From a virus, in the IMG/VR virus record IMGVR_UViG_3300020159_000786, positions 6,984 through 70,983 of that record: a DNA stretch of 64,000 nucleotides, one strand, 5' to 3'. The position numbers were made by a program, and so were the translations under genes. Position 1 is the first letter of the stretch. Each line of letters opens with the position of its first letter. Below, in pieces: positions 17,926 to 57,856 of this stretch. Under the pieces are notes generated by a model. That model had not been told where the DNA came from. It saw only the letters and a list, made by a program, of their open reading frames with translations, and ran no database searches.

Positions 17926-18417
17926 CTATATTGTATCATAGTAAGTGTTTCCATTTAATAAAATTTCAACTTCTACCTGTTCGTCTTTTTCCATATTAAT
18001 AAGTTCTATGACAATATTTCCAGTTATTTCATCTATATATATGTTAGAATTATTTGGACCGCTTGCTACATTGGGAATTTTTGATTCAAACAAAATAGGA
18101 AAATTTTTAAAATATTGAAGAGAGGTTTGATCAACTGGTGATAAGTTATATGAGTTATATTTTTGATATATTTGATTAGAATTACCTATTGGTTCGTAAA
18201 TTAAGTTTGATCCAAAAACAGTGTCGTTACGTGAAATATTAAGTATTTCTTGACTACCAATATCTTCAAATATTAATTTAGTCATTAATTCTACTGGAGT
18301 AGACTCTTCATCGAGCAGTACATATTGCGGGGTAGCGGTTTTAACAAGATTGTTGTCAACGCTAGTAGAATTATTAGAAGATATTTTTATTGGTGTATTA
18401 GGATTAGAATCAGTCAT
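17926..18417 (-). CDS. Putative minor tail protein
   Basis: Tail module position; start MTDSNP overlaps the upstream stop. Confidence 0.55.
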   Translation of the reverse strand: MTDSNPNTPIKISSNNSTSVDNNLVKTATPQYVLLDEESTPVELMTKLIFEDIGSQEILNISRNDTVFGSNLIYEPIGNSNQIYQKYNSYNLSPVDQTSLQYFKNFPILFESKIPNVASGPNNSNIYIDEITGNIVIELINMEKDEQVEVEILLNGNTYYDTI

Positions 18418-22678: not shown

Positions 22679-23313
22679 TATGCTTCTACCAAATTTATAT
22701 TAATGTTCCAAAGATCGTAAGTTCCGCTTCCTCTCTTTACTACATCATAAGAAAAATCATTAAAAAATACTTCAACAACTTCTTGATATTCTTGCAATCT
22801 ATCATATGAACTCTCTCCAAGAGTGTTAAAGTTTGACCTTTTATCATAACACAAAAACATATAAAATGAGCCAGTTTGATTTTTATACCAGTCTAGTAAC
22901 TCGTTACCACCTGCACCACCATCTACCGTATGTGCTATTATTCCTTCAGGAACTTCTCCACTTATTGGATCAAAAGAGGGCCTATCACTATATGCTCTTG
23001 ATGGAAAATTTGTCCAAGACAAACTGAATGATCTTTTATCTGCTATGTGGTAAGATCTCATTTTTCCATTTATCATTCTTTGTTTTTGCTCTACTCTTTC
23101 ATTTGTTATGTCAATTGGCCCACGATTATGATCACTTAATATGATAAAAAAATCACTACCTTGTTCTGGAGAATCTGTATCTATTTCATATCCGTTTGGA
23201 ACGTATATATTACCTAAATCTGTAGATACTTTGCTTCCTGGATTATTAGAAAAAAGAACAGCCTGTGGTCTGTAGTATTTTTTTCTATTATTCATATATA
23301 CTAAATTAGCCAT
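22678..23313 (-). CDS. Distal tail (Dit-like) protein
   Basis: Directly after the tape measure; RMINGKMR...SLSW...WNININLVE. Confidence 0.6.
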   Translation of the reverse strand: MANLVYMNNRKKYYRPQAVLFSNNPGSKVSTDLGNIYVPNGYEIDTDSPEQGSDFFIILSDHNRGPIDITNERVEQKQRMINGKMRSYHIADKRSFSLSWTNFPSRAYSDRPSFDPISGEVPEGIIAHTVDGGAGGNELLDWYKNQTGSFYMFLCYDKRSNFNTLGESSYDRLQEYQEVVEVFFNDFSYDVVKRGSGTYDLWNININLVEA

Positions 23314-43293: not shown

Positions 43294-43824
43294 TCATAAA
43301 ATACGTGTAAACCAGCGTGGTAACGTAAACCTAACACCCTTTGATATTTGCTTAACTCCGTGAATAAAGTTTGGATTATCTGGAAAACATAAAAGGTCTC
43401 CAGGATTTGGCTTAAAGGACATGTTGTATTCTGGAAAATATATGTCTCCACCCTCATATTCATTATTTAAATAAACTAGTGTTGCTATGTCTTTTGGTCT
43501 AGATGAATCAAAGTGTTCGTGCATTCCTGCACCTTCAACAAATTTAGCAATATGTGTTTTTTCATCAATAAACGGTTCAAAACTATATTCATAGTTATTT
43601 ATAACAAAATCATATACTTTATGTGCAGTATTTTGTATAACATTAAGAATGTTTTCATCTAAACCACCTATTTCGTGGTATGTATGAACTGTAAATTCTT
43701 GTTCATTGTTTCCATAATTAGAAAACAATTCAGAGTGTTTTTTGGCATATTGAGTTATTAATTCTGCTTCACTGGGATCCATAAATCCCTCAACATACTT
43801 AATTTGAGACTTAAAGTCTTCCAT
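43294..43824 (-). CDS. Prolyl-4-hydroxylase-like 2OG-Fe(II) oxygenase
   Basis: HEHFD...IATLVYLNNEYEGGDIYF...HGVKQISKGVRFT. Confidence 0.88.
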   Translation of the reverse strand: MEDFKSQIKYVEGFMDPSEAELITQYAKKHSELFSNYGNNEQEFTVHTYHEIGGLDENILNVIQNTAHKVYDFVINNYEYSFEPFIDEKTHIAKFVEGAGMHEHFDSSRPKDIATLVYLNNEYEGGDIYFPEYNMSFKPNPGDLLCFPDNPNFIHGVKQISKGVRFTLPRWFTRIL

Positions 43825-45946: not shown

Positions 45947-46075
45947 TTAGTGAAATGACATTGCTGTATGTGGTTTTGAACTACAACGTTCACATAATGT
46001 ATATGTATTTTTAGTATAAGGACATGTAATTGAATTTATTTTATGTCCAAAAATAAAACAAAGTATTTTACTCAA
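45947..46075 (-). CDS. Small Cys/His protein (DUF1660-like, 42 aa, TTG start)
   Basis: Manual translation SKILCFIFGHK...CPY...CERC; TTGA overlap with the upstream stop. Confidence 0.55.
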   Translation of the reverse strand: MSKILCFIFGHKINSITCPYTKNTYTLCERCSSKPHTAMSFH

Positions 46076-46716
46076 GGTAATGGAACCCAATGCTGTAATT
46101 CATCTCCATCCATATACATCATTGGAGATATGTCATAAGCAATTGTTATTCTTGGTTTATCAAATAACCAAGGACCTATTCCATGAGGATGACCAGTTTC
46201 AGACAAAATAGCCCTATTGTTTTTATTAATGTTTTCAATTACAGGCTTGTCTTGCCCACCTATTTTGTAATATGTAACCGATGGCTCAGCATCTACACAG
46301 TAGTATCCGTGAAAATTAGGAGCACCAGTTCCTCCTAAGTGATCATGATAATGACTTGATTCATCTACTGGTGGTTCAGCAATACCGTCGGTATTAAACC
46401 ATCCTTGTACCATATAGGCTTGTTTTTTATAGTCAATACCATAATAAACACATGCTTCCACAGTCATATCTCTTAATGCTGAAAATAATTTGTGAATTTG
46501 TGGATTATAGCATTGAAAAATATTAAACTTAGTTCCTAGGTTGTGCGTACCACCAATATTACTTGCAAACTCTTTAGAAACTTTTGGATAAATTCCGTTA
46601 AATAAATCTTTTTCTACATTTAATAAATATTGAGAAAGAGTATTTAGTTCATTGTTTAAATATTTTTCAAAAAACTTATGTGGTTGACTATTATTTTTCA
46701 CAACAGAGGAATCCAA
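46072..46716 (-). CDS. Putative 2OG-Fe(II)/cupin oxygenase (HxH type)
   Basis: QGWFN...HYHDH...FHGYYCV...GHPHG...PRITIAYD. Confidence 0.7.
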   Translation of the reverse strand: MDSSVVKNNSQPHKFFEKYLNNELNTLSQYLLNVEKDLFNGIYPKVSKEFASNIGGTHNLGTKFNIFQCYNPQIHKLFSALRDMTVEACVYYGIDYKKQAYMVQGWFNTDGIAEPPVDESSHYHDHLGGTGAPNFHGYYCVDAEPSVTYYKIGGQDKPVIENINKNNRAILSETGHPHGIGPWLFDKPRITIAYDISPMMYMDGDELQHWVPLP

Positions 46717-47360
46717 TGTTGTTCATTTTCCATTCCAAGTTGTTGTAAATCTCTTAGTGGAACAACATCGTAAGCAACAGTTATTCTTGGACCATCCCAA
46801 CTCCAATCTCCTTGTGCATGTGGATGTCCCATTTCTGAAAATATAGCACGATTATCTATATTTTTATTTATAATATCTTTACCAAAAACTTTATAATATG
46901 TTGTTGATGGTTCTGCTTTTACGCAATAATATCCATGAAAATGTGGTGCTCCTGAATGACCATGATCATGCCAATTAAGTTTTCCTTTTTTATTATAGTT
47001 AATATTAAACCATCCCTGAACCATAAATTTTTCTTTATCAAAATCTAACTCATAGTATTCGCAGGCCTCTTTAGCCATTTCGCTTATTGATTTATACAAA
47101 TTAAACAATCCAACACTATGAAATTGAAATACGTTATATTCTCTCCATTTAACTGTAGAAACACTTCCAGACTCGGTCCAAAAATCATCTTTTGTTACTG
47201 GAGTTATACCCTCTAGTTCTACTTGTTCAATTTTTTTATATCTTTCTGACAACTCTTGAGATAAAATATCAAGATCATTATTTAAAAATCTTTCAAAAAA
47301 TTTATGTGGCTTTAATGAACTCTTAATCCCAGGAATTTCTGGTGGTAAACTATTTTGCAT
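46698..47360 (-). CDS. Putative 2OG-Fe(II)/cupin oxygenase (HxH type), tandem paralog
   Basis: QGWFN...NWHDH...FHGYYCV...GHPHA...PRITVAYD; shares PHKFFE and QHW.PL with its neighbour. Confidence 0.7.
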   Translation of the reverse strand: MQNSLPPEIPGIKSSLKPHKFFERFLNNDLDILSQELSERYKKIEQVELEGITPVTKDDFWTESGSVSTVKWREYNVFQFHSVGLFNLYKSISEMAKEACEYYELDFDKEKFMVQGWFNINYNKKGKLNWHDHGHSGAPHFHGYYCVKAEPSTTYYKVFGKDIINKNIDNRAIFSEMGHPHAQGDWSWDGPRITVAYDVVPLRDLQQLGMENEQHWIPLL

Positions 47361-47415: not shown

Positions 47416-48690
47416 TTAAAGATATTCTGGATAATATTCTGGATGTGTTGTTATACCAGATGCGTTTATAAATCCTATATCTTTAAATTTATAACTATAT
47501 ACTGTTCTATCTTCTTCTATAATCTCAAAACTTTCTAATAAATATCTAAATTCTAGCCCATTAATATTTGTAACTAAATAATCTCCAACTATGAGTTTTG
47601 TTGATGTACAAAATAAATATTCTTTATTTCTATATATTAAAATTTCTTCTGAATCTGATATTCTTTTATTTATATCTTTATTAATTATGACAGTTCTTTT
47701 AACTGGTGTTATAATAATATCTTCTATCCTAGATTCTATTATTTTAAAATTATTTAAATCTTTAACTTTCCATTCTTTTAATTTTTCTACAGTATCCACA
47801 ATTGGTTTATTATCAAATGTTTGCAACAACAAACTATCTTCAATCCTAATATCTTGTGCTTTTTTCCAACCAGAAACTGTAAGAATTAAAGTATCTTGGT
47901 CTATGCATCTGATTGTTGGAGAAAAACCAAATACTCTAAATGGAGAAAAACCAAATACTTTAAATGGTGTAAATGAAAATGGAGAAAAACCAAATACTTT
48001 AAAAGGTGTAAAACTAAATACTGAAAAAGGTACAAAACTAAATACTTCAAAAGGAGAGAATCCAAAAACTCCAAATGGAGCAAAAGAAAATGTTGTGGTT
48101 ATAGTATTAGAATAATCAGAAAAAACAGAGTTTCCATTTGCATTTGTAGCATACACCCTATATGCTTGAGAGGTTCCTGCTTCTTGTCCTAATGATGCAC
48201 TTGTTGAAGTTCCAGAATTACCCGCTTTACTATCATTTGATTCCCAATAATAATTCGTAATTACTGATCCACCATTTGCAGGTGCTGACCAACTAATTTG
48301 GTCTTCATTTGCGTTTGGAGAAGATGCAGTTGGCGTGCCAGGTTTGTCTGGAACTGTTGTTGAAGTAATAGAATTAGATGCTGTTGATGCTGCTGATGTT
48401 CCATAGGTATTAGTTGCAGTTACTGTAAAGGTATATGTGGTATCTGATTGTAGACCTGTAACTGTAATTGGAGATGATGCTCCAGTTGCTGTAAAACTAC
48501 CTGGAGTTGATGTAACTGTAAAAGAATCTGCTGCATAGGTAGGATCTGCTGTAAATGTTACTGTGGCTGCACCATTGTTATATGCCCGCCCTGTTCCAAC
48601 GTTTGTTGCTGTACCAATTGTTGGTGCTTTTGGTGCTAAAAAGTCATTAGCCTGTTGTGACTTTCTTCCTGCCTTTTTTCCTGCTGCCAT
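47416..48690 (-). CDS. FN3-domain protein with Phe-rich repeats and a C-terminal Hint domain
   Basis: Two FN3 repeats (TGLQSDTTYTFTVTATN; WSAPANGGSVITNY), then F-x-V-F-[GS]-F-x-P repeats, then CIDQDT...WKKAQDIRIED...LIVGD...TVY...SGITTH. Confidence 0.85.
   Translation of the reverse strand: MAAGKKAGRKSQQANDFLAPKAPTIGTATNVGTGRAYNNGAATVTFTADPTYAADSFTVTSTPGSFTATGASSPITVTGLQSDTTYTFTVTATNTYGTSAASTASNSITSTTVPDKPGTPTASSPNANEDQISWSAPANGGSVITNYYWESNDSKAGNSGTSTSASLGQEAGTSQAYRVYATNANGNSVFSDYSNTITTTFSFAPFGVFGFSPFEVFSFVPFSVFSFTPFKVFGFSPFSFTPFKVFGFSPFRVFGFSPTIRCIDQDTLILTVSGWKKAQDIRIEDSLLLQTFDNKPIVDTVEKLKEWKVKDLNNFKIIESRIEDIIITPVKRTVIINKDINKRISDSEEILIYRNKEYLFCTSTKLIVGDYLVTNINGLEFRYLLESFEIIEEDRTVYSYKFKDIGFINASGITTHPEYYPEYL
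47917..48090 (-). repeat. Coding 24-bp (and 15-bp) tandem repeat, 58 aa
   Basis: FSFAP/FGVFGFSP/FEVFSFVP/FSVFSFTP/FKVFGFSP/FSFTP/FKVFGFSP/FRVFGFSP. Confidence 0.95.
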
Positions 48691-48721
48691 TTTTCTCCCT
48701 AAACCTTATTATATCAAACAC

Positions 48722-51361
48722 TTAGTTAGTTAGATCTCCATATGCAACCCAAGTATTTTCTGCTCTTTTAAATATAGTTGCCGAAGACCATTGTGTTCTT
48801 AATTTTAATCCTGGAGTAGCATTTATTGTTACTCCAACTTCTCCATCAATTGTTACCTGTCCTGTACCAGTTTGAAGAATATCAAGAGAAGTTCCAATTG
48901 GAAAGGCTACTGCTGAATTAAGAGGAATAGTCAATGTAGTTGGACTAGAACTACCCATTTCTATCAAATCATCTCTTTCAGTTAATGCTGACAAAGTATA
49001 ACTTGCTGTTTTTTGAATAATTGGTGTTAATGATGGGACACCTTGTAATGATTGGGTTCCGTCAGAAAATGTGATGCTTGTTGCGTTTGCTGCACCAAGA
49101 GTAGGGGTAGTAAATGAAGGACTACTTGTTCTAGCAATAGATGATGGTATTACTGTTTCGCTTATTGTTCCAGTTGTAATATTATTTGCATTAATATCGG
49201 TTATATTATTTCCACTACCTTCAAAAGAAGATGCCACAACTGTACCTAATGTAAAAGATGCATCTGCTGTATTTATTGTTCCAGTAGGTTCAGGGTCATA
49301 CTCTTTAAAAAATTTAAACTTGTCATCACTAACATCAAAAAACATTCCAAGATGTGTATATCCAGTGCCAGTATTACCAGTATTTCTATTGCCAATAAAA
49401 GCGATGTCTAAATTAACTGGAGATGCTGTACCAGACCAAATATCATCAAGAATATGTCCGTGATCTTCTATAAAAGAAACTTTAATACCGTCACTAAGTG
49501 CGTACTCTACTCCTGGCTCAATTAAAATATCTGAACCATTGTTTGTTACAAAGTTATCTACTGACCATCTAAATGAATCTGGATTGCTTCCACTACCGTT
49601 TATTGTAATCTTAACTTTAAAAGTTTTAGTTGTTGTTCCATCATAATGACCAACAAGTGTTGCATCATCTACACCAGTTCCAGAGAAAGTAGTTCCTAAT
49701 GCTCCAATGGTATCTCCACTATTCAAATAAATAAAATTATTTGAAACAGAAAGATTAGTTAATTGTAATTCAGATTGAGAACCAATTAATGTAAAATCTC
49801 CACCAACTATTAAGTCTCCATCAATATATGCACCATCTATAACTCTTATTCTTTCAAAAGCATGATCAACAATATGAACATACACACTCCCATCAATATC
49901 ATCTGATGTTAAACAAATTCCAAGGTCTGTTGGGAAATTCGGGTATTCTGGAGCATCTGCAACTATTTGTCCAGGAGATTCAAAACCTAAATGAAAGCGT
50001 CCACCACTAGTGAGTGCAGAAGTATCTATTCCTTTTAAGTATCCACGAACAACAACATATCCAAATGAGTTTGAATTAATACTTTCACCAGTTAATCCAA
50101 TAATATTAGTTTTAGTTCCATCTGTTGCGTCTCCTATATCAATAGTTGGGCAGTGTCCATAAACTGGATCTCCAGAAATATGTACTCCATTTATATATAC
50201 TGGTGTACCTTTAGGAATTGTTGTTAATGTTGAATTTCTACACCTTACCCACTCTCTTTGTCCTAAACTCATTTCAAAATTTGTTCCACTGCCTTGACCA
50301 ATAAATGTTTTTTCGTCATCACTATAATAAAAATTACCTTCTTGCCATGTTGGGTAATTTGCACTTGCTGATGGAGTCAAATGTATGTAATCATTTACTT
50401 CAAAACTGTCTACAGTTACTGTATTGCTAAAAGTTGGGCCATTTAAGTTTGCTTTTAAATCTAAAGCACTTTGTTGTGCAGTTGATACTGGCTTATTCAA
50501 ATCTGAGGTATTATCTACATCACCTAAACCAACATCTGATTTAGTTATTCCCAAAGGAGATTGTATAGTTTTATTTGTAAGTGTTTGTGTGCCGTCAAGT
50601 GTAACTAAGTTTGCTGTATTTACTATTCCGTGTACATTTTCTGTTAAAAGATTGTGAGCATTTACCTTATCTAAAGAATCTTGTGCTGCTGTGTTTATTG
50701 CACCCAAAACTTGTGTATTTCTGGCTTCAGCCTCTGCATAAATTAATTGATAAGCATAACAAGCAGATGATGTTTGAGATTCCTCAATAGACAAAGAAAG
50801 TGATGCACTTACGTCTAATAAATCTTGTGAAACACTGCTAATTAATGCATTTGTAGCAAAAAATTCATCACTTACTAAATTTGAATAAAGTGCTATTGAA
50901 CCATCAGTGTATGATGCACTTGTTGCTATTCCATCTATAATGTTATTATTAATCTGTTCAATGTCTATTGTGTTTGCTAATGCTGTTACACTTTCGTCTG
51001 TATAAAAATTTGAACTACTTATTGCATCATACACACTAAGAGTAAGCGTTTCATTTACATTTTCAAGTTGTTGATAAACATAATTATATGAAGCAGAAAC
51101 TTGAGACATTCTTGCTATGTCAGAAGATATTTGCTCATCTGGAACAACAACTAGTCCATTTAATGTTGCAACACCATTAGCAGCACCCTTTTCTGAATAT
51201 GGGATTCCACCAGATGAAACTAGCGTATCATCTACATATTCTTTAGTGGCAGCATGATTATCTTGTGTAGGTGTACCTACTACTACGCTGCCACCAAAGG
51301 ATCCGCCATTGGTAACTAGAAGACCATTTTTGACTTTAAAGTCTTTATTATTAGTCGTCAA
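48722..51361 (-). CDS. Multidomain fibre protein
   Basis: KDFKVKNGL N-terminus, HAATKEYVD, KSDVGLGDVDNTSDLNKPVSTAQ fibre repeat, cement-like middle domain, C-terminal AFPIG...GDL domain. Confidence 0.8.
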   Translation of the reverse strand: MTTNNKDFKVKNGLLVTNGGSFGGSVVVGTPTQDNHAATKEYVDDTLVSSGGIPYSEKGAANGVATLNGLVVVPDEQISSDIARMSQVSASYNYVYQQLENVNETLTLSVYDAISSSNFYTDESVTALANTIDIEQINNNIIDGIATSASYTDGSIALYSNLVSDEFFATNALISSVSQDLLDVSASLSLSIEESQTSSACYAYQLIYAEAEARNTQVLGAINTAAQDSLDKVNAHNLLTENVHGIVNTANLVTLDGTQTLTNKTIQSPLGITKSDVGLGDVDNTSDLNKPVSTAQQSALDLKANLNGPTFSNTVTVDSFEVNDYIHLTPSASANYPTWQEGNFYYSDDEKTFIGQGSGTNFEMSLGQREWVRCRNSTLTTIPKGTPVYINGVHISGDPVYGHCPTIDIGDATDGTKTNIIGLTGESINSNSFGYVVVRGYLKGIDTSALTSGGRFHLGFESPGQIVADAPEYPNFPTDLGICLTSDDIDGSVYVHIVDHAFERIRVIDGAYIDGDLIVGGDFTLIGSQSELQLTNLSVSNNFIYLNSGDTIGALGTTFSGTGVDDATLVGHYDGTTTKTFKVKITINGSGSNPDSFRWSVDNFVTNNGSDILIEPGVEYALSDGIKVSFIEDHGHILDDIWSGTASPVNLDIAFIGNRNTGNTGTGYTHLGMFFDVSDDKFKFFKEYDPEPTGTINTADASFTLGTVVASSFEGSGNNITDINANNITTGTISETVIPSSIARTSSPSFTTPTLGAANATSITFSDGTQSLQGVPSLTPIIQKTASYTLSALTERDDLIEMGSSSPTTLTIPLNSAVAFPIGTSLDILQTGTGQVTIDGEVGVTINATPGLKLRTQWSSATIFKRAENTWVAYGDLTN

Positions 51362-51385
51362 ACTATAGCCTCCTTAAGTTATTTA

Positions 51386-53869
51386 CTAAACTAACAATGT
51401 GCCAACAACTGTTACATCTGAGTTATTGTTTAATGTTGTTACTCTTAGTCTTACATCTGTTCCAGATACGTCTGCAGAAATGCTGGATGAAGATCCATTT
51501 GTTCCTACAATTGCGTACTCTGTAATTGCTATGTTGTCTGAAGTATCAAGAGTTAACATAACTTTTGATATTTCTGTGTGCGTGCTATAAGCAACCTTTA
51601 CTAAAAATTCTGCTGAGCGAAATGATGCTTTTGCCCAATCGAATGCTGTAATTGTGCTTGCTGTTGCAACTTCTACTGTTGCTGCAACTTGTCTAGCAAC
51701 ACTATTAACATCAATTTCAGTGAAATTAGGAACTACTGCTTCAAGAGCATCTACTGCACGTTGATCTGTGAAGTAAAGGTTTGTTGTTCCTTCAGTTAGA
51801 TCATCTGTATCAGAATCTGCTACACCATTTTCTGCGGTAATAGTAAGTCCTGAACCTGAGCCTGTGATTGTAATGTTTGTTAGTGTTGCATTTGTTAACA
51901 AATCTGCTGCAGAACCTTTAGCACGAGCATCGGTAAAATATTGATTATTTGTACCTTCGTCTAAATCATCTGTAGTAGAGTCTTCTACTCCGTTTTCTGC
52001 AGTAATGATCAATTCACCAGAAACTTCAGTGATAGAGATGTTTGTTTGGGTTGAACCAGTTAATACGTCTCTAACTCTTTGTGCTGTGAAATATTGATTT
52101 GTTGTACCTTCTGCTACATCATCAGTATCTTGGTCATCTACATATTGCTGAGTTGCAATTTCATTTCCAGATGCTGCTGATCCAAGGTATGAAGTACCAT
52201 CTGCATTAAGAATAATGTCGCCATTATTAGTAGTTAGTACTATATCATCACTACCATCAATTTTTAAATTATCTGCATTTGCATAAATTGCAGAATAATT
52301 ATTTATGCCATCTTGAAAATGAAGTGAATCTGTAATTGTTTTATTGGAAAGACTTTGAGTATCTGATGTTCCAACAATATTACCAGAAACTCCGTGTGTT
52401 GAAGTTAAATCAGCATGTGTTGAAATAGCACCTGCTGGTTCGTACCAAGTATCAACAGTTGTACGATCTACTGAAACTTCTAGACCATCTACTGTAATGC
52501 CTGATCCTGCTGTTACAGAACCTGAACCAGAGAACTGTGTCCAGTTTTGTGCTGTAAAATCAGTTAGGTAAGCATTGCTTTGTACCCAAGAAGTTGCACC
52601 ATATTGGTCTCCTTCTGCAACATAAACTGCTGCACCAAGAAGTTCTGTGTATACATCTGCATCTGCTGAACGAGTTAAAACTACATCCCCATCAACGTTA
52701 GAAATAACATAGATACCATTTTGTGATCCTGTTGTCTGCCCTACAAGAAGTACTCTAAGTCCAGCATCTGCTGTAGTAAGAACATGTCCATCGTATGTTC
52801 CAGCGGCATCTAAAAGATCGCTAATGTTTGAATCAATCTTTACGTGTACTGCATTCTTCCAGTCAAGACCAGAAATTGCGTTATCTACATATGAGTGAGT
52901 TGCAATCTCGTTACCTGCTGATGATCCACCAATGTATGAATTTCCATCTGCATCAAGGATTATATCTCCACTATCTGAAATAATTTTAACATCAGCACCA
53001 GACGCTACTGTTTTAAGATCAAGATCTCCATAATTAGCCTTAATCTCAAACTCATGGTTTGGAGAAAGAATAGAAATTTGTCCTTCATCATTTACTGTTA
53101 CACCATCTGTAAAATATGTTGTATCAATAAATCTTTTATTTGAAAGATCTTGTGTATCAGTTGTTCCAACTACTGAACCAGTTACTCCGTGTACTCCAGA
53201 AGTTAAACCTTCGTGTGTTGAAAGATCTCCAGCAACATCGCTTGCTGCTCCGTTTGCATCATACCAAGTATCTACTGTTGTACGATCAATTTTAATTTGT
53301 GCAGCATCAATATGAAGACCACCAGACACATCAGCAGATATATCTCCAGTTGTATCATTAAATGAAATTCCATCTCCACCTGTAAGTGTATCTCGAACAC
53401 GTTGTTCTGTAAAGTACTTGTTTGTTGTGCCTTCTTCTAAATCATCAGTTGTAGAATCGTCCACACCGTTTTCTGCAGTGATGTGTAAGTCTCCATCAAC
53501 TTCTGTTATAGAAATATTAGTTTGTGTTGATCCAGTCAAAACATTCTTTACACGTTGTGCTGTAAAGTATTGATTTGTTGAACCTTCTGTTAAATCATCA
53601 GTATCGTGATTAGAGATATCTGATACTTGACCAAGAACGTCTCCTATAAGATCTGCTGAGATTTCTCTTGCAGCAAAATCTCCATTTGCATCACGTATTA
53701 CTACTTTTAAAGCAGTGCTTGCTGAGGTAGCAGCACCTTCAATAAGATCAATAAGATAATCTTGATCATCTTGTTTTTTTGTAAGAATGTCATAGTTGTT
53801 AATAGTACCTGTGGTACCTTCTACTACTAAACCACTCTTTACTTTGAAATTTTTTGTTACTGTTGCCAT
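51386..53869 (-). CDS. Acidic repeat-containing fibre protein
   Basis: KNFKVKSGL N-terminus; five TDD[LV]xEGxxNxYFTxxR repeats; RVLLVGQTTGSQNGIY; C-terminal RSAEFLV...TEY domain. Confidence 0.8.
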   Translation of the reverse strand: MATVTKNFKVKSGLVVEGTTGTINNYDILTKKQDDQDYLIDLIEGAATSASTALKVVIRDANGDFAAREISADLIGDVLGQVSDISNHDTDDLTEGSTNQYFTAQRVKNVLTGSTQTNISITEVDGDLHITAENGVDDSTTDDLEEGTTNKYFTEQRVRDTLTGGDGISFNDTTGDISADVSGGLHIDAAQIKIDRTTVDTWYDANGAASDVAGDLSTHEGLTSGVHGVTGSVVGTTDTQDLSNKRFIDTTYFTDGVTVNDEGQISILSPNHEFEIKANYGDLDLKTVASGADVKIISDSGDIILDADGNSYIGGSSAGNEIATHSYVDNAISGLDWKNAVHVKIDSNISDLLDAAGTYDGHVLTTADAGLRVLLVGQTTGSQNGIYVISNVDGDVVLTRSADADVYTELLGAAVYVAEGDQYGATSWVQSNAYLTDFTAQNWTQFSGSGSVTAGSGITVDGLEVSVDRTTVDTWYEPAGAISTHADLTSTHGVSGNIVGTSDTQSLSNKTITDSLHFQDGINNYSAIYANADNLKIDGSDDIVLTTNNGDIILNADGTSYLGSAASGNEIATQQYVDDQDTDDVAEGTTNQYFTAQRVRDVLTGSTQTNISITEVSGELIITAENGVEDSTTDDLDEGTNNQYFTDARAKGSAADLLTNATLTNITITGSGSGLTITAENGVADSDTDDLTEGTTNLYFTDQRAVDALEAVVPNFTEIDVNSVARQVAATVEVATASTITAFDWAKASFRSAEFLVKVAYSTHTEISKVMLTLDTSDNIAITEYAIVGTNGSSSSISADVSGTDVRLRVTTLNNNSDVTVVGTLLV

Positions 53870-53885
53870 TGCTTATCTTCTCCTT

Positions 53886-54332
53886 TTATGCCTTAAGTCC
53901 TATACGTGCGTAACGTACAGTGACTGGCTTGATTGTTGGATGTGGGGTAAAGTTTAAACTAACCACACTTCCAGATCTAGATATATCAATGGTGCCAATA
54001 TTCCCATCATTATCTATTGTTCCATATTCGGTTACATTGAGATTTATCCCATCAACCAATACGGTCAACTCTGTTGCATAGTAGTAGTTATCTCCTTGTG
54101 TTTTTTTAGAAATTGAAACAAGGTATTTAACTACTCTCCATTCTGTAGAATTAAATGTATCTATTACTGTAAAATTATCTATTTCAGAAATTGTGTTATC
54201 ATTATTTCCATAAGTTCCTAATCTGGTGGCCTGCGAAGAAGTAGTGTCAATTAAATCTTCATAGTCTTGTTGAGATGGCCTATCGCCAGTCTCATAACGT
54301 GATTTTATTGTAGGAATAGATATTTGTGCCAT
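53886..54332 (-). CDS. Virion protein; probable fibre anchor
   Basis: ETGDRPSQQDYEDLID N-terminus; C-terminal domain resembles that of 51386..53869. Confidence 0.65.
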   Translation of the reverse strand: MAQISIPTIKSRYETGDRPSQQDYEDLIDTTSSQATRLGTYGNNDNTISEIDNFTVIDTFNSTEWRVVKYLVSISKKTQGDNYYYATELTVLVDGINLNVTEYGTIDNDGNIGTIDISRSGSVVSLNFTPHPTIKPVTVRYARIGLKA

Positions 54333-54364
54333 ACTTAGATTATAACATAATTTTGATTTTTACA

Positions 54365-54589
54365 TTATAATATATAGTTGCTAAATCCAATTATTTGAAG
54401 GGGTATTGGTGGTACATTATTTGGACCATATCCTTCTATTGTTATGGTAGTAAATCTTATTCTAAAAGGTAGGGTGTAGTTTATTTCTACCGTGTTGGGT
54501 TTGTAGGATATGTTGGTTTTGTAATAATCTGACGTTTCAATACGTCTTAATTTTTGTTTATTATTATCAATAATAATTGCTGTTGCCAT
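54365..54589 (-). CDS. Small hypothetical virion-module protein
   Basis: 74-aa ORF coupled to the upstream gene. Confidence 0.6.
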   Translation of the reverse strand: MATAIIIDNNKQKLRRIETSDYYKTNISYKPNTVEINYTLPFRIRFTTITIEGYGPNNVPPIPLQIIGFSNYIL

Positions 54590-54996
54590 TAATCAGTTAC
54601 ATCTTCAAGGATAATCATGCTACCTTGTGCTACTGTCCATACTGTATCTGCATTAGATAACTCGATATCAAAGATATCTCCTGTTTGAAGATTATGTGAT
54701 TCTTCTGCTAAAAGTCTAACTGTAAATTCTCCATCTAAATCATCTGCATCTGCTGCTGGATTTAAAGCCATAACAGTGGTTGCGTTGTCTGTAATTACTC
54801 CAAGATCTGCAACATCATTTGGTCTTTTAATTTTCATAGCAATGTCCCAATCTTCTATTACTAAGGGAGATTGTTGATCATCTGTTACGTAAACCTTAAA
54901 TGCTGAGGTATCACCACGAACTACTGTCCATTTAACAGTTGGGGGTTTTGCACCTACGTTATATAAATCTTGAGAAGAGTTTCTAAGAGTGGCCAT
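54589..54996 (-). CDS. BppU-N-like beta-sandwich virion protein (paralog 1)
   Basis: WTVVRGDT...FDIEL...TVAQGSMIILEDVT. Confidence 0.6.
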   Translation of the reverse strand: MATLRNSSQDLYNVGAKPPTVKWTVVRGDTSAFKVYVTDDQQSPLVIEDWDIAMKIKRPNDVADLGVITDNATTVMALNPAADADDLDGEFTVRLLAEESHNLQTGDIFDIELSNADTVWTVAQGSMIILEDVTD

Positions 54997-55026
54997 ATCA
55001 TAATTATATCATCTTTGAAGAAATAA

Positions 55027-55545
55027 TTATGAAAGACCGTTCTTTAATGCTCCCCAAGTACCGTTACCTTTAGCGGTAACTACTAAAATTCCATTTGTTG
55101 CATCAGAATATGCACATATAGCAATTGCACCAGCACCACTAGATGGACGTGTTGCCGTTAATCCTCCACCATCTTTAACGTATAAAATATCTCCTGCTAC
55201 AAATGATGATGTATTTACTCCAGGAAGAACTCCAGATACCACGCACACCCCATCAGCGTTATTAGATGTTGTTGATCTCATTAATCCAAGTATTGGAGCA
55301 GTTGTTTCTGGTAATGCTTTTGCAACAGTAGTTTTAGTAGAAAAACCAGTTACATATACAGGATATCCAGCATTAATTGAGGTTCCGCTAATATTTTTAA
55401 CATCCAACTTCATGTAAGAAAGACCTAGACCAGCAAGGGTTGTATCTAAAGTAGAAGTTAAAGACTCTATATCTCCGTGAACATTTACATAATCATCAAC
55501 CTGTGGAAATGGTAAGTTATATGTTCCTGATAATCCTGTTGCCAT
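55027..55545 (-). CDS. Virion protein with a cement/decoration-like domain
   Basis: YNLPFP N-terminus; VKNISGTSINAGYPVYV...NTSSFVAGDILYV, shared with the middle of 48722..51361. Confidence 0.6.
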   Translation of the reverse strand: MATGLSGTYNLPFPQVDDYVNVHGDIESLTSTLDTTLAGLGLSYMKLDVKNISGTSINAGYPVYVTGFSTKTTVAKALPETTAPILGLMRSTTSNNADGVCVVSGVLPGVNTSSFVAGDILYVKDGGGLTATRPSSGAGAIAICAYSDATNGILVVTAKGNGTWGALKNGLS

Positions 55546-55607
55546 ATAAATATTATATCATTTTAAATAATTTTTTTTAATTATCTTACTAATATAACAT
55601 TTTTAAT

Positions 55608-55636
55608 TTGACATGCTGGCAAATAGATGTTATACT
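55608..55636 (+). promoter_or_regulatory. Near-consensus sigma70/SigA promoter
   Basis: TTGACA-N17-TATACT with a TGn extension. Confidence 0.85.
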
Positions 55637-55684
55637 TGATATATGACACCTACCAAGGGTGTCATGTTTTCTTAGGAGAGAACT

Positions 55685-56260
55685 ATGAAAAAAGATAAAA
55701 AATTTTTAATAGGATTGCTCGCAAGTCTTGGATTGTTTTCAGTATTCTTGAATATTTCTAATGCTCAAGGTGTTGAAACTAACCTGAAAAACGATAAATA
55801 TGCAACATTTACCGCTGAGGCGGTTTTTTTGCTTTCTAGGCCAGATCACCTAGACAAACCATCTAGAGATAACGTAAGGACCCTTGCTGAGTATCAGGAC
55901 AAAGGACAATTTACAGATATTGAATTAAAAACTTTGCTATCTGCTTGTGGATTTGAAGATAGGCGTTTAGTTGAAGCCTGGGCTATTGTTAAAAAAGAAT
56001 CAATGGGCAATGCTCTAGCCTTTAACGGTAATAAGAAAACTGGAGACAGTTCTTATGGTTTATTTCAAATCAACATGATTGGTGCTTTAAATGATGATAG
56101 AAAAGAAAAATATAATTTAGATTACACTAGTCAACTATTAAATCCATCTATTAATTGTCAGGTTGCTTATATTATGAGTGATGGTGGTAATGATTGGGGA
56201 CCTTGGAAAGGTATTACATCAAAAACTAGAGAGTTTATGTATCAGTTTCCAAAAGATTAA
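55685..56260 (+). CDS. Secreted or membrane-anchored lytic transglycosylase (SLT/lysozyme-like)
   Basis: Basic-hydrophobic signal sequence; AWAIVKKES catalytic Glu, SYGLFQIN, LLNPSIN, WGPW; AGGAG RBS. Confidence 0.85.
   Translation: MKKDKKFLIGLLASLGLFSVFLNISNAQGVETNLKNDKYATFTAEAVFLLSRPDHLDKPSRDNVRTLAEYQDKGQFTDIELKTLLSACGFEDRRLVEAWAIVKKESMGNALAFNGNKKTGDSSYGLFQINMIGALNDDRKEKYNLDYTSQLLNPSINCQVAYIMSDGGNDWGPWKGITSKTREFMYQFPKD
55811..55830 (+). terminator. Terminator-like hairpin inside the transglycosylase CDS
   Basis: ACCGC-TGAG-GCGGT followed by TTTTTT. Confidence 0.5.
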
Positions 56261-57198
56261 TCTATTGGGTAGGCATTGTATACATATAATGAATCTGCTA
56301 CTATTAATCCAAATGGCTCTCTTATAAAATCATAAACTTCTCTATCTTCTTTTACAATTTGAATAGAGTCAATATTGCAATAAGGAACAGTTGTTTCATC
56401 TATGTCTTTAACTATCTTATCTCCTGATTGTAAATCAGAAGAAACTATAAATTTTAATTTTCCATCTCTTATTGTTAATATATCTTCTTGAGTTGAAAAT
56501 CTTTTAAATTTATCACTATTAACTATTACTGTTTCTGAAACTTTTGTTATTTCAATATTTTTAACTTCAGATTCTAAAGTTTGATATTCTTTGTTTAATT
56601 CAGATGACCAATTTTTTAAACCATTGTGATCTGTTATTGGTAAATCTTCAAATATTTTAGTTATTAAAATATCACCAATCTTAATATCTTTTGCCAACAC
56701 ATAACCATTTTTTGTTAAAACTGGAGTATCTTGGTCTATACATACTGGGACTGCTGGAGAAAAACCAAATACTTTAAATGGAGAAAATCCAAATGGAGAA
56801 AAACCAAATACTTTAAAAGGTGTAAAACTAAATACTGAAAAAGGTGTAAAACTAAATACTGAAAAAGGTGTAAAACTAAATACTGAAAAAGGTGCAAAAC
56901 TAAATACTGCAAATGGAGAAAATCCAAAAACACCGAATGGAGCAAAAGAAAATGTCCTTATTGTTAAATCTACTGGTGTTTCATAATTAGCAATTGTTGC
57001 TGCTGACGGATTCTGATCAACAACTTGACCTGTATATGGTTGTTGTCCAGCATCTCCAGATAGTGATTCTGTAACATTTCCAACAATAAAACCTTCAGAA
57101 ACTACATCAGATTGTGCAGTTGCACTAGTTCTTCCTATAAAGTTGGGAAGAATTTTCATTCCTTTTGCTACGACATATTTAACTAATTTACCAAACAT
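56257..57198 (-). CDS. PASTA-domain protein with Phe-rich repeats and a C-terminal Hint domain
   Basis: LPNFIGRT...GFIVG...GQVVDQNPSA...VDLTI (PASTA), then repeats, then CIDQDTPVLTKNGYVLAKDIKIGD...LQSGD...VYDF...VYN. Confidence 0.85.
   Translation of the reverse strand: MFGKLVKYVVAKGMKILPNFIGRTSATAQSDVVSEGFIVGNVTESLSGDAGQQPYTGQVVDQNPSAATIANYETPVDLTIRTFSFAPFGVFGFSPFAVFSFAPFSVFSFTPFSVFSFTPFSVFSFTPFKVFGFSPFGFSPFKVFGFSPAVPVCIDQDTPVLTKNGYVLAKDIKIGDILITKIFEDLPITDHNGLKNWSSELNKEYQTLESEVKNIEITKVSETVIVNSDKFKRFSTQEDILTIRDGKLKFIVSSDLQSGDKIVKDIDETTVPYCNIDSIQIVKEDREVYDFIREPFGLIVADSLYVYNAYPID
56755..56952 (-). repeat. Coding 24-bp (and 15-bp) tandem repeat, 66 aa
   Basis: FSFAP/FGVFGFSP/FAVFSFAP/FSVFSFTP x3/FKVFGFSP/FGFSP/FKVFGFSP. 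Confidence 0.95.
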
Positions 57199-57205
57199 GT
57201 TGTAC

Positions 57206-57856
57206 CTACGCTATCAAATCACCAACAAGTAGCCAAGTGTTTGTGTCAATTTTAAATATTGATGCACCTGTATACCTTGCTGCAATTGACTTGTTTGAAT
57301 TCTTACTATTTATAGTTACACCAGAATTTGGAGAAAATGTTACAGAACCTGTGTTCATTCTAAAAACATCTATCTCTGATCCTATTGGAAATGCTACTTC
57401 TGAGTTTGCTGGAATATTTATAGTATAGGTAAAGGTAGAATCAAATGTTATAGTTTTTCCAATATCATTTAAACTTATATCATAAGAAGTATTGCTTGAG
57501 GCTGTTTGTGCATTAAGTGTAACTGTTCCTCCGTGTGGAACCCATCTTGTACCGTCATAATATTGTATTTGATTAATAGCAACAGCATCAGAATTTTGTC
57601 TAATAAAACAAACCGTTCCTCTTACTGGAGAAGTAAGTGCACCATCTCTTGCTGCAGGATTTAAAAAGTTATTAACTCCAGCCTTTGCCTGAACCACAGA
57701 ATTAATGTCTTCAAAAACAACGTTATTTAAAAAATTATGTGTTCCAGTCCATTCATAATTAGATCCAGTATTAATATTGCCACCGATTGCATACCAGGTA
57801 TCTGTTCCTTCGTCATAGACGTAGGCAACTTTGCCAGAATTATTTAATGTTGCCAT
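57206..57856 (-). CDS. Fibre adaptor protein with C-terminal AFPIG...GDL domain
   Basis: AARDGALTSP...QYYDGTRW segment, then IPANSEVAFPIGSEI...NTWLLVGDL, paralogous to the 48722 C-terminus. Confidence 0.7.
   Translation of the reverse strand: MATLNNSGKVAYVYDEGTDTWYAIGGNINTGSNYEWTGTHNFLNNVVFEDINSVVQAKAGVNNFLNPAARDGALTSPVRGTVCFIRQNSDAVAINQIQYYDGTRWVPHGGTVTLNAQTASSNTSYDISLNDIGKTITFDSTFTYTINIPANSEVAFPIGSEIDVFRMNTGSVTFSPNSGVTINSKNSNKSIAARYTGASIFKIDTNTWLLVGDLIA

What the first reader, a model, noticed from the sequence alone, without database searches (positions are those of the whole stretch)
47416..57856. Candidate new system: self-processing Phe-rich repeat-Hint proteins, present twice, each behind the same docking-domain gene
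Seen: two genes about 8 kb apart (47416..48690 and 56257..57198) have unrelated heads (2x FN3 versus PASTA). Both heads are followed by the same repeat tract, F-x-V-F-[GS]-F-[STAV]-P (58 and 66 aa), and then a Hint domain starting CIDQDT. Each gene lies immediately downstream of a gene ending in the same AFPIG...TW...GDL domain (48722..51361 and 57206..57856). Known: Hedgehog- and BIL-type Hint domains use Cys1 to form a thioester, which is hydrolysed or transferred to a nucleophile, releasing the N-terminal part. Inference: the mature product is a fibre-tip protein whose C-terminus is a highly hydrophobic Phe/Pro repeat, possibly ligated to a lipid, glycan or another protein. The Hint would act as a removable solubility or folding cap. 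A RiPP-like repeated-core precursor is an alternative. I know of no description of this architecture.
Basis: partly seen in the sequence, partly recalled or inferred. Interest (0 to 1): 0.9.

Follow-up and report, generated by a model that had tools for sequence, protein, structure and literature searches.

The report
Phage fibre partners with Hint cap
An uncultured lake phage makes two tail-fibre-module proteins, each a binding head plus a greasy phenylalanine/proline repeat capped by an intein-like (Hint) domain that probably cuts itself off, and related phages encode the same proteins without the cap.

Summary
Two genes (FN3x2 head; PASTA head) share a Phe/Pro octapeptide tract of 58 and 66 aa and a terminal domain beginning CIDQDT. 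Each lies 31 or 7 nt behind a fibre gene ending in the same ~125-aa domain.

The terminal domain has a Hint fold. Its best structural matches are inteins, bacterial intein-like (BIL) domains and Hedgehog. Cys1 is kept in 50 of 50 distinct relatives. Both window copies have Glu where inteins have the block B His.

New here: of the 80 best viral contigs with the FN3 head, 51 carry the Hint and 26 are complete genes that stop 0-26 residues after the repeat, in otherwise identical synteny. At least 8 gains or losses are needed on the head tree. The Hint is therefore a facultative, most likely self-removing cap, and head plus repeat is the working product.

The "docking domain" is a generic fibre end domain. 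It occurs in 248 cultured-phage records that lack this partner and has a gp9/gp10 XD1-like fold. Docking rests on synteny alone. No chemistry is shown.

This scan has met the family before on other genomes. I found no description in print. I class it as a new variant of a known kind.

The parts
57206..57856 (-). 216-aa small tail-fibre protein. Its last ~125 aa (nt 57209-57598) form the shared fibre end domain ('AFPIG...W...GDL').
   Evidence: (PHROG tail families 21510, 8780, 21978). AF2 model pLDDT 83.7. XD1-like fold.
56257..57198 (-). 313-aa PASTA-head + repeat + Hint protein (P0002).
56959..57153 (-). PASTA head (residues 16-80).
   Evidence: Pfam PF03793, E 1e-6, above cut-off.
56755..56952 (-). 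66-aa Phe/Pro octapeptide repeat, F-x-P-F-x-V-F-[GS] (residues 83-148).
   Evidence: 24-nt DNA period, 94% matches. pLDDT about 30 as a monomer. F and P positions at least 90% conserved in 47 sequences.
56260..56742 (-). Hint domain (residues 153-313). Cys1 codon at 56740-56742. Block B reads S235-x-x-E238. The end reads Y-N-A-Y-P-I-D.
   Evidence: AF2 block means of pLDDT 73-95 over residues 151-310, most of them 85-95. Foldseek matches to inteins, BIL and Hedgehog..
48722..51361 (-). 879-aa tail-fibre protein. Its last ~125 aa (nt 48725-49114) form the same fibre end domain.
   Evidence: (phrog_8780 minor tail protein, E 5.7e-23).
47416..48690 (-). 424-aa FN3x2-head + repeat + Hint protein (P0001).
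47917..48090 (-). 58-aa Phe/Pro octapeptide repeat (residues 201-258).
47419..47907 (-). Hint domain (residues 262-424). Cys1 codon at 47905-47907. Block B reads S-x-x-E. There is no terminal Asn (..T-T-H-P-E-Y-Y-P-E-Y-L).
   Evidence: (Hint HMM, E 1.3e-54).

Best explanation
Both genes belong to the tail-fibre module of an uncultured freshwater phage.

What is encoded. Each gene encodes an accessory appendage protein with three parts:
- a small binding head (two FN3 domains, or one PASTA domain);
- a strongly conserved, very hydrophobic Phe/Pro repeat;
- a C-terminal Hint domain of the bacterial-intein-like / Hedgehog kind.

Proposed mechanism. The Hint most likely makes an N-to-S acyl shift at the X|Cys1 bond. 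The resulting thioester is then resolved, by water as the default. The Hint is thereby cut off, and head + repeat with a free C-terminus is the working protein.

Role of the Hint. It is a facultative cap, since sister phages encode the end product directly. Why a cap is useful is not known. Masking an aggregation-prone or degradation-prone hydrophobic C-terminus during synthesis is one possibility.

The upstream gene. It is a tail fibre whose shared C-terminal domain is a generic fibre end domain. That the repeat protein mounts on it is suggested only by the tight, conserved gene pairing.

Shown: fold, invariant Cys1, architecture, synteny, natural Hint-less forms.
Inferred: cleavage, its timing, virion location, partnership with the fibre.
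For: Fold. AF2 with 47 homologues gives block means of pLDDT 73-95 for residues 151-310, most of them 85-95. Foldseek against PDB gives 57 matches at E<=1e-3. The listed matches are inteins, intein-like (BIL) domains and the Hedgehog autoprocessing domain. They include 6rpq 1.3e-7, C. thermocellum BIL 2lwy 6.8e-7 (TMt 0.75), BIL2 6tmm and Hedgehog 1at0 5.7e-6.

Homology. Relatives found with the family profile are recognised by Pfam intein/Hint models: Intein_splicing in 23 of 87, Hint_2 in 5 of 87.

Catalytic residues.
- Cys1 is kept in 50 of 50 distinct locus/window ORFs.
- Among library representatives that reach that column, 97 have Cys and 1 has Ser.
- The block B first residue is Ser/Thr in 49 of 50.
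- No copy with a lost Cys1 was seen; the domain is either intact or wholly absent.

Terminal position. Nothing follows the Hint: 0-9 residues in the loci. Cys1-to-end is at most 200 aa in 98 of 99 representatives.

Natural Hint-less forms. Of the 80 best of 368 IMG/VR relatives of the FN3 head:
- 51 have the Hint fused;
- 1 has it in another frame;
- 26 are complete ORFs ending 0-26 aa after the repeat, with no Hint in at least 513 nt downstream;
- 2 run off the locus.
In L061, L074 and L075 the next gene is the same one as in the window. Some Hint-less ends (..FGFSPPFR..VFGFR) resemble the predicted cleavage product of the window gene (..FGFSPTIR|C).

Evolutionary lability. The head tree needs at least 8 Hint/no-Hint changes, at least 5 of them forced by well-supported branches.

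Modularity. P0006 has a head 93% identical to the window's FN3 head. Its Hint is 98% identical to the window's PASTA-gene Hint and only 38% identical to the FN3 gene's own.

Synteny. A fibre gene ending in the shared domain lies directly upstream of:
- 13 of 16 evaluable distinct Hint ORFs;
- 47 of 48 Hint-bearing FN3 loci as scored;
- 24 of 26 Hint-less FN3 loci; the other two, like the one unscored Hint-bearing locus, lack upstream sequence.

Precedent. Self-cleavage by BIL domains that lack a +1 nucleophile is described in PMC5874633, passages read.
Against: - No cleavage, thioester or virion protein has been observed.
- Both window Hints have Glu at the block B His position (E in 24, Q in 16, H in 10 of 50). 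That His normally promotes the acyl shift. Compensation is known for some inteins, but I saw this only as reference titles.
- The block F Asp column is not conserved (D in 12 of 50).
- P0001 has no terminal Asn.
- Hint-less orthologues show the Hint is dispensable. That equally fits an optional extra function, such as ligation, rather than plain removal.
- 13 of 13 PASTA-head loci sampled keep the Hint, so facultativeness is shown only for the FN3 lineage.
- The repeat is unmodelled (pLDDT about 30).
- The shared fibre end domain also occurs without any such partner: the second fibre in L021 and 248 cultured-phage records.
Confidence: 0.6

Rival explanations
1. Hint-mediated ligation. The thioester at the end of the repeat is captured by a specific nucleophile rather than by water. 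Candidates are a lysine of the fibre end domain, a lipid, a cell-wall amine or a glycan. The head + repeat would then be grafted covalently, as Hedgehog is to cholesterol or the Tetrahymena BIL2 product to lysines.
For: - The Hint chemistry allows it. BIL2 forms an isopeptide bond to substrate lysines (PMC8616854, section 2.4, passage read), and BIL2 is among the best fold matches.
- The gene pairing with the fibre is tight.
- The fibre end domain has an invariant Lys (K116 of alignment A4).
Against: - 26 of 80 FN3-head orthologues have no Hint yet keep the same synteny. A Hint-made bond therefore cannot be essential.
- The invariant Lys is also present in Gordonia phage Baddon and Marinobacter phage PS6, which have no Hint partner. 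It is probably structural.
- There is no sterol-recognition-like region after the Hint.
Confidence: 0.12
2. The Hint is retained. It would be a degenerate, non-cleaving Hint fold serving as a structural or binding end domain of the appendage.
For: - The block B His is replaced by Glu in both window copies.
- The terminal Asn is missing in P0001.
- The block F Asp is not conserved.
Against: - Cys1 is kept in 50 of 50 ORFs and in 97 of 98 representatives (the other has Ser), while other catalytic positions drift.
- The Ser/Thr of block B is kept in 49 of 50.
- The domain is lost cleanly and repeatedly rather than decaying.
- Relatives keep the canonical T/S-x-x-H and H-N motifs.
Confidence: 0.15
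3. Selfish or near-neutral passenger. The Hint persists because it removes itself. It spreads among repeat-bearing genes by recombination within the repetitive DNA, with no benefit to the phage.
For: - At least 8 gains or losses are needed on the head tree.
- A cassette swap occurred between the two paralogous genes (P0006).
- The repeat DNA is a 24-nt tandem array with 84-96% matches, which is a ready recombination joint.
Against: - No homing endonuclease or other drive is present.
- The Hint family is large and old: 329 clusters at E<=1e-10.
- It is nearly always terminal and preceded by an aromatic/Pro tract: 88 of 96 representatives. That suggests a selected pairing.
Confidence: 0.08
4. 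RiPP-like precursor. The repeat units would be cores that are excised and released as small peptides.
For: The only support is the repeated, conserved short units.
Against: - The genes sit in the virion/tail-fibre block behind fibre genes.
- The heads are folded binding domains.
- No protease, cyclase or radical-SAM family was found in the neighbours I scanned. Only part of the window was scanned.
- Repeat type varies widely between relatives (FFPP, YSFTP, poly-Pro, NFY).
Confidence: 0.02

Closest known systems
A-type bacterial intein-like (BIL) domains, e.g. Clostridium thermocellum BIL (PDB 2lwy)
   Same: - Hint fold: 2lwy E 6.8e-7, TMt 0.75.
- N-terminal Cys.
- No +1 Cys/Ser/Thr nucleophile in most members.
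- Self-cleavage rather than obligatory splicing is expected (PMC5874633, passages read).
- Relatives in L009-L019, L021 and L022 end in His-Asn plus 1-4 residues.
   Different: - The host is a phage virion-module protein, not a bacterial secreted protein.
- The domain is always at the extreme C-terminus, behind an aromatic/Pro repeat.
- The two window copies have Glu for the block B His, and Tyr-Asn or no Asn at the end.
- Pfam models do not detect them.
Hedgehog C-terminal autoprocessing (Hog) domain (PDB 1at0)
   Same: - A C-terminal Hint releases the N-terminal part through a Cys1 thioester.
- Fold match: E 5.7e-6, TMt 0.69.
   Different: - There is no sterol-recognition region after the Hint, only 0-9 residues.
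- There is no Gly-Cys-Phe junction.
- No adduct is known.
Tetrahymena BUBL BIL2 domain (PDB 6tmm/6y75)
   Same: Fold match at E 1.9e-6. It is a precedent for a Hint passing its N-terminal cargo to a lysine (PMC8616854, passage read).
   Different: The cargo here is a fibre appendage, not a ubiquitin-like domain. Hint-less orthologues argue against obligatory conjugation.
C-terminal intramolecular chaperone domains of phage tailspikes and fibres (Peptidase_S74 type). This comparison is recalled and comes from no call.
   Same: A functional analogy only: a C-terminal domain of a phage appendage protein that cuts itself off after doing its job.
   Different: The fold and chemistry are unrelated. 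No Pfam match to that family was found in either protein at E<=1.
XD1 domain of T4 gp9/gp10 and CBA120 TSP4; C-terminal domain of the Pseudomonas phage Pa223 capsid spike (for the shared upstream domain)
   Same: Beta-sandwich fold:
- Pa223 9ny6_C residues 195-293: Z 14.3, rmsd 2.1, 99 aligned.
- KP1 baseplate protein: Z 10.4.
- TSP4 residues 79-182: Z 8.6.
- CpaA: Z 7.8. StcE: Z 6.0.
   Different: Here the domain ends the fibre. In TSP4 and gp10 the documented docking modules are XD2 and XD3, and the role of XD1 is called unclear (PMC8825819, passages read).

Membership tests
Hint superfamily | Horseshoe-like Hint fold. | tested here: met
   AF2 block means of pLDDT 73-95 over residues 151-310. 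There are 57 PDB matches at E<=1e-3; those listed are inteins, BIL domains and the Hedgehog autoprocessing domain.
Hint superfamily | Nucleophile (Cys/Ser) as first residue. | tested here: met
   Cys at residue 262 (P0001) and residue 153 (P0002). Cys in 50 of 50 distinct relatives.
Hint superfamily | Block B Thr-x-x-His. | tested here: not met
   Both window copies read Ser-x-x-Glu. Across 50 relatives the first position is S/T in 49, and the His position is E 24, Q 16, H 10.
Hint superfamily | Autoprocessing activity. | not testable with these tools
   This needs expression of wild type against a Cys1-to-Ala mutant.
Canonical (splicing) intein | Terminal Asn/Gln followed by a +1 Cys/Ser/Thr, and a functional C-extein. 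| tested here: not met
   P0001 ends ..T-H-P-E-Y-Y-P-E-Y-L with no Asn. P0002 ends ..Y-N-A-Y-P-I-D, so +1 is Ala. Only 5-9 residues follow the Hint.
Canonical (splicing) intein | Insertion in a conserved site of a host protein, often with a homing endonuclease. | tested here: not met
   The domain is terminal, 161-163 aa from Cys1 to the end, with no endonuclease insert. The true inteins picked up in the same scan (L026-L029, L032, L033) look different.
A-type BIL domain | N-terminal Cys, C-terminal His-Asn, usually no +1 nucleophile. | tested here: inconclusive
   Met by relatives L009-L019, L021 and L022. The window copies have Tyr-Asn-Ala or no Asn. No dedicated BIL profile was available to score membership.
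Hedgehog-type Hog domain | Hint followed by a sterol-recognition region; Gly-Cys-Phe junction. | tested here: not met
   Nothing follows the Hint. The junction residues are Arg|Cys-Ile and Val|Cys-Ile.
Peptidase_S74 intramolecular chaperone | Sequence family of the C-terminal autocleaving chaperone. | tested here: not met
   No Pfam match at E<=1 in either protein.
gp10-type docking modules (XD2/XD3) | Jelly-roll XD2/XD3 fold that binds a trimeric partner. | tested here: inconclusive
   The shared upstream domain aligns to TSP4 residues 79-182, which is XD1 rather than XD2/XD3 (PMC8825819). Binding is untested.

The most novel reading that the evidence does not exclude
The aromatic/proline repeat is a previously unrecognised kind of phage appendage polymer that is finished chemically after translation. 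Its C-terminus would be set by one of three interchangeable end modules: nothing, a Cys-rich ~20-aa knot, or a self-cleaving Hint whose thioester can also be handed to a nucleophile. Its prolines or aromatics would be tailored by the oxygenase-like enzymes encoded next door. That would make this a phage-encoded protein-tailoring system for fibre tips.
Probability: 0.2. Interest if true: 0.8.

Novelty: new variant of a known kind. Interest (0 to 1): 0.62.

Why it matters
Hint domains are known as inteins, as Hedgehog processing domains, and as BIL or pretoxin modules of bacteria. A large, Cys1-invariant Hint family that always terminates phage tail-fibre-module proteins behind an aromatic/proline repeat would be a new biological use of this chemistry.

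The family is large: 329 clusters at 50% identity with E<=1e-10, and 368 relatives of the FN3 head in IMG/VR.

It offers three things:
- a simple, testable case of self-processing in virion assembly;
- natural with/without-Hint pairs for comparison;
- possibly compact C-terminal cleavage tags that work without the block B histidine.

It also flags an unstudied, very hydrophobic repeat as a likely host-contact or assembly element in abundant freshwater phages.

Tried and rejected
Sequence searches that did not detect the Hint.
- Pfam found no Hint family in either window protein at E<=1.
- phmmer against PDB gave nothing for P0003, and only a weak TFIIB mini-intein hit (5o9j, E 0.26) for P0004.
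- The fold search was therefore needed.

GenBank phages.
- tblastn of P0001, and of the L012 homologue, found nothing at E<=1e-5 and E<=1e-3 respectively.
- P0004 found only an intein-domain protein of Phage NCTB.
- The low-complexity filter was on.

Complex prediction (P0002 alignment with the fibre end-domain alignment) gave no verdict (score 0.00). This is neither support nor evidence against binding.

Synteny was studied with the search for related loci instead.

Sequencing runs.
- The look-up of sequencing runs listed no RNA holder, so it says nothing on expression.
- Read laying was run on contigs of 4 runs. Contigs break at the repeat.
- A joint 47312>47915 appears in 3 runs, with unknown letters between and 39-letter sides at 85% likeness. 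It comes from patchily aligning relatives, and I do not interpret it as a Hint-less allele.

Ideas I dropped.
- The invariant Lys of the fibre end domain as the ligation nucleophile. It is also present in Baddon and PS6, which have no partner.
- The claim that block F Asp is conserved. It is D in only 12 of 50.
- My first guess that PASTA loci L119-L124 carry the FN3-gene type of Hint. Identity is only 34-36%.

The two downstream paralogues.
- My working label for them, '2OG oxygenase', is not backed by Pfam, PHROGs or PDB profile searches.
- It rests only on language-model features.

Corrections to my notebook and scripts.
- My notebook calls the window's clade 'marine'. The run labels say freshwater or lake.
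- The script picked the wrong ORF in L059, L065, L066 and L087. Counts in this report are corrected.

Literature.
- Searches found no description of this architecture.
- The phiCbK and CBB papers mention only ordinary inteins.
- No supplements were asked for or seen.
Full report
OBSERVATION.
The window is the right-hand 64 kb of a 70,983-base viral record judged 64% complete. Its G+C content is 26-37%. It carries a portal, a head protease and a capsid-like protein at 35-39 kb.
The two genes are as described:
- 47416..48690 (-) encodes 424 aa with fn3 (E 1.2e-7, two stretches).
- 56257..57198 (-) encodes 313 aa with PASTA (E 1e-6).
They align only over the repeat and the C-terminal domain: 41% identity over 285 columns, E 3e-58.
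The repeat tracts are 58 aa (22 Phe, 8 Pro) and 66 aa (25 Phe, 9 Pro). They are followed after 3-4 residues by Cys-Ile-Asp-Gln-Asp-Thr.
At DNA level the repeats are 24-nt tandem arrays with 84-96% matches.
The genes directly upstream (879 aa, 31 nt away; 216 aa, 7 nt away) share a C-terminal domain: 36% identity over 118 residues, E 8e-16.
The window holds exactly two copies each of the end domain, the Hint and the F/P tract.

THE C-TERMINAL DOMAIN IS A HINT.
Pfam did not detect it.
With an alignment of 47 homologues, AlphaFold2 models residues 151-310 of P0002 with block means of pLDDT 73-95, most of them 85-95. The repeat (residues 84-150) stays below 50.
Foldseek against PDB returns 57 matches at E<=1e-3. 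The listed matches are inteins, bacterial intein-like domains and the Hedgehog autoprocessing domain. Examples are 6rpq 1.3e-7, 2lwy 6.8e-7 (TMt 0.75), 6tmm 1.9e-6 and 1at0 5.7e-6.
More distant relatives in viral contigs show classical motifs:
- block B S/T-x-x-His in L017, L019, L020, L021 and L022;
- ends of the type ..I-V-V-H-N plus 1-4 residues.
Of 87 full-length library relatives, Pfam recognises Intein_splicing in 23 and Hint_2 in 5.

CATALYTIC POSITIONS (hmmalign to the family profile).
- Cys1: 50 of 50 distinct ORFs from loci and window. Among library representatives, 97 have Cys and 1 has Ser; 51 are fragments without that column.
- Block B first residue: Ser/Thr in 49 of 50.
- Block B His position: Glu 24, Gln 16, His 10. 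Both window copies have Glu.
- Terminal Asn: 33 of 50. P0002 has Tyr-Asn-Ala. P0001 has none.
- The +1 residue is mostly Lys and rarely a nucleophile.
- The block F Asp column is not conserved (12 of 50).
This is therefore not a splicing intein. It is closest in logic to A-type BIL domains and to Hedgehog, where N-terminal cleavage is driven by Cys1. The window copies have an unusual Glu for the block B His.

SIZE AND SHAPE OF THE FAMILY.
A profile of 14 diverse Hint domains was searched against 1.84 billion representatives. It finds 2159 proteins at E<=1e-3 (the weak end includes ordinary inteins), 329 at E<=1e-10 and 58 at E<=1e-30.
In the best 150, the Hint ends the protein: Cys1-to-end is at most 200 aa in 98 of 99.
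Of the 96 representatives with at least 20 residues upstream of Cys1, the count with a given share of Phe+Pro+Tyr+Trp in the 30 residues before Cys1 is:
- 88 with at least 30%;
- 78 with at least 40%;
- 62 with at least 50%.
The tract varies: FFPP, FFAPPG, FGFSPFxV, YSFTP, WFPWFPP, poly-Pro, PVAPTP, NFYNYY.
Heads among 87 full-length representatives are fn3 in 37 and PASTA in 20.
Within the window's own clade, the Phe and Pro positions of the repeat are at least 90% conserved across 47 sequences whose Hints are only 37-98% identical. The tract is therefore constrained and is not a mere linker.
UniProt holds auto-named members from uncultured Caudovirales. The names include 'PASTA_pknB domain containing', 'Fibronectin type III' and 'Hint domain containing'.
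None was found in 50,697 GenBank phage records.

THE HINT IS FACULTATIVE (the main new result).
Searching IMG/VR with the FN3 head alone gave 368 relatives, of which the best 80 were fetched. Their makeup is:
- 51 have the Hint fused.
- 1 (L059) has it in an overlapping frame after a shift inside the repeat.
- 26 are complete ORFs that stop 0-26 residues after the repeat, with no Hint-profile hit anywhere in at least 513 nt downstream.
- 2 run off the locus (four mis-picked ORFs corrected by hand).
Hint-less ends come in two kinds:
- short, such as ..FGFSPPFR, ..VFGFR and ..FSPFYPGRND;
- a Cys-rich tail of about 9-24 residues.
Several Hint-less forms recur in independent contigs, e.g. L110-L116 apart from L113, and L100/L102.
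In L061, L074 and L075 the next gene, about 45 nt on, is the homologue of the window's next gene. The absence is therefore clean.
A maximum-likelihood tree of the head was built from 77 rows. Four loci were left out because my head motif did not find them, and three rows were unlabelled. The tree needs at least 8 changes of Hint/no-Hint, at least 5 of them forced by starred branches. Label shuffles average 18.
Modules also recombine. P0006 has the window's FN3 head (93% identity) but the window's PASTA-gene Hint (98%; 38% to the FN3 gene's own).
For PASTA heads, only 13 close loci were found, and all keep the Hint.
I read this as follows. Head + repeat is the functional product, and the Hint is a cap that is either removed chemically or simply not encoded. 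The lack of any copy with a lost Cys1 fits selection against an uncleavable cap.

THE UPSTREAM 'DOCKING' DOMAIN.
A fibre gene ending in this domain lies directly upstream of:
- 13 of 16 evaluable distinct Hint ORFs of the first scan. The exceptions are the second of two tandem Hint genes in L020 and two variants of a 750-aa form.
- 47 of 48 Hint-bearing FN3 loci as scored.
- 24 of 26 Hint-less FN3 loci. The other two, like the one unscored Hint-bearing locus, lack upstream sequence.
The pairing is therefore with the head + repeat protein, not with the Hint.
The domain is generic, however:
- It matches PHROG tail families.
- It occurs in 248 GenBank phage records, 223 of them Gordonia phages, and none of these has this partner.
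- In L021 a second fibre with it has no such neighbour.
- In Baddon and PS6 the next gene overlaps by 4 nt but is unrelated.
Its model has pLDDT 83.7. The best structural matches are the Pa223 capsid-spike end domain (Z 14.3), a KP1 baseplate protein (Z 10.4) and CBA120 TSP4 residues 79-182 (Z 8.6).
The last of these is the XD1 domain, also seen in T4 gp9/gp10, CpaA and StcE. Its role is called unclear, while XD2 and XD3 are the documented docking modules (PMC8825819, passages read).
Docking thus remains an inference from synteny.

MECHANISM, WITH STATUS OF EACH STEP.
1. Translation of head-repeat-Hint. This is read directly from the sequence.
2. N-to-S acyl shift at Arg261|Cys262 and Val152|Cys153. 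Inferred from the fold and the invariant Cys1.
3. Resolution of the thioester, by water as the default, releasing an ~18-kDa Hint. Inferred. The Hint-less orthologues support this indirectly.
4. Head + repeat acts in the tail-fibre apparatus, perhaps mounted on the preceding fibre. Inferred from gene order only.
Rival readings are ligation, a retained inactive Hint, a selfish passenger and a RiPP precursor. They are weighed in their own sections.

HABITAT AND PRIOR NOTES.
A 1-kb stretch of the FN3 gene is held, at half or more of its sampled words, by 18 runs. Two of these may be the source of this DNA. The 16 others come from 11 coded studies (one of them the possible source's own), labelled freshwater or lake-water metagenome, plain metagenome, or by a coded organism name. 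Four of them were laid and hold contigs at least 99% alike in parts.
This scan has met the same family on other genomes. Earlier follow-ups reached the same fold assignment and the same closest known family. They also report prolyl-hydroxylase-like genes next to the repeat genes.
I checked that lead only partly:
- In FFPP-type Hint-less loci, 4 of the 7 downstream ORFs tested carry PF13640.
- The window has a PF13640 protein at 43294-43824.
- The two paralogues directly downstream of the FN3 gene match no Pfam, PHROG or PDB profile. They resemble 2OG-FeII_Oxy_5 clusters only by language-model features.

LITERATURE.
Four searches found no description of a terminal Hint behind an aromatic/Pro repeat in phage fibre-module proteins.
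Papers used, as passages found with paper reading:
- PMC5874633 for BIL types;
- PMC8616854 section 2.4 for BIL2 isopeptide formation;
- PMC8825819 for XD domains.
Amitai 2003, Dassa 2004, Tori 2012 and Friedel 2019 were seen only as reference-list entries.

VERDICT.
This is a real, widespread and apparently undescribed architecture built on a known autoprocessing fold, with natural evidence that the Hint is a dispensable cap. No chemistry has been shown.

Noticed in passing
L082 2992-3999; L100 2955-3980; L101; L102; L109; L117; also L091/L093 and L075/L076: Hint-less FN3 + repeat orthologues end in a Cys-rich tail of about 9-24 residues, with up to about 10 Cys. This is a third kind of end module after the repeat. 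Its function is unknown; a metal or disulfide knot is possible.
   Followed up: partly
L059 2305-3084 and 2852-3637: Head + repeat and Hint lie in two overlapping frames, with the shift inside the repeat. This is either an assembly error in the repetitive DNA or a natural frameshift that uncouples the Hint.
   Followed up: no
window 46072-46716 and 46698-47360 (-): Two paralogous 214/220-aa proteins lie directly downstream of the FN3-repeat-Hint gene. They have invariant His residues (H-D-H...H...H). They match no Pfam, PHROG or PDB profile but resemble viral 2OG-FeII_Oxy_5 clusters by language-model features (score 0.96). Homologues occupy the same position in L038, L044, L061, L074 and L075, which is 5 of the 16 loci checked; L086 holds one a gene further on.
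   Followed up: partly
window 43294-43824 (-); L110 3886-4623 and 5399-6091; L082 4510-5238; L063 4987-5733: 2OG-FeII_Oxy_3 (PF13640, the prolyl-hydroxylase-type family) genes sit near the repeat genes, including in Hint-less loci. L063 4188-5015 also has a glycosyltransferase-like match (Gb3_synth, E 4.2e-5). They are candidate tailoring enzymes for the Pro-rich tract.
   Followed up: partly
window 55685-56260 (+): A lysozyme-like SLT_3/SLT protein (E 4.6e-13) with a hydrophobic N-terminus lies on the opposite strand inside the fibre block. Its end overlaps the end of the PASTA-repeat-Hint gene by 4 nt. A homologue lies in the same block of L021 (8549-9148, opposite strand).
   Followed up: no
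L020 9500-10450 and 10481-11410: Two repeat-Hint genes stand in tandem behind one fibre gene.
   Followed up: no
P0006 (library protein, 431 aa): Its FN3 head is 93% identical to the window's, but its Hint is 98% identical to the window's PASTA-gene Hint. This indicates recombination or gene conversion between the two cassettes, probably through the repeat DNA.
   Followed up: yes
BFVD entry A0A6J5QMR4 (rank 29): A protein of an uncultured Caudovirales phage, named 'Collagen triple helix repeat', matches the Hint model. This suggests Hint caps also follow other repetitive fibre segments.
   Followed up: no
L023-L025, L031 (750-aa ORF, e.g. L023 8213-10462): A large form has three Cys-rich repeated modules, then a Pro/Phe tract and a Hint. 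It is not preceded by a fibre gene with the shared end domain.
   Followed up: no
window 47312 / 47915: Contigs of three lake metagenome runs align on both sides of the FN3 gene's Hint, with unknown letters between (table 5). They are divergent relatives, and the joint cannot be interpreted at 85% likeness.
   Followed up: no
window 23313-30266, 18410-22678, 39671-43273 (-): Very large ORFs of 2317, 1422 and 1200 aa. The 1200-aa one has no PHROG match at E<=1e-5. They were not studied.
   Followed up: no
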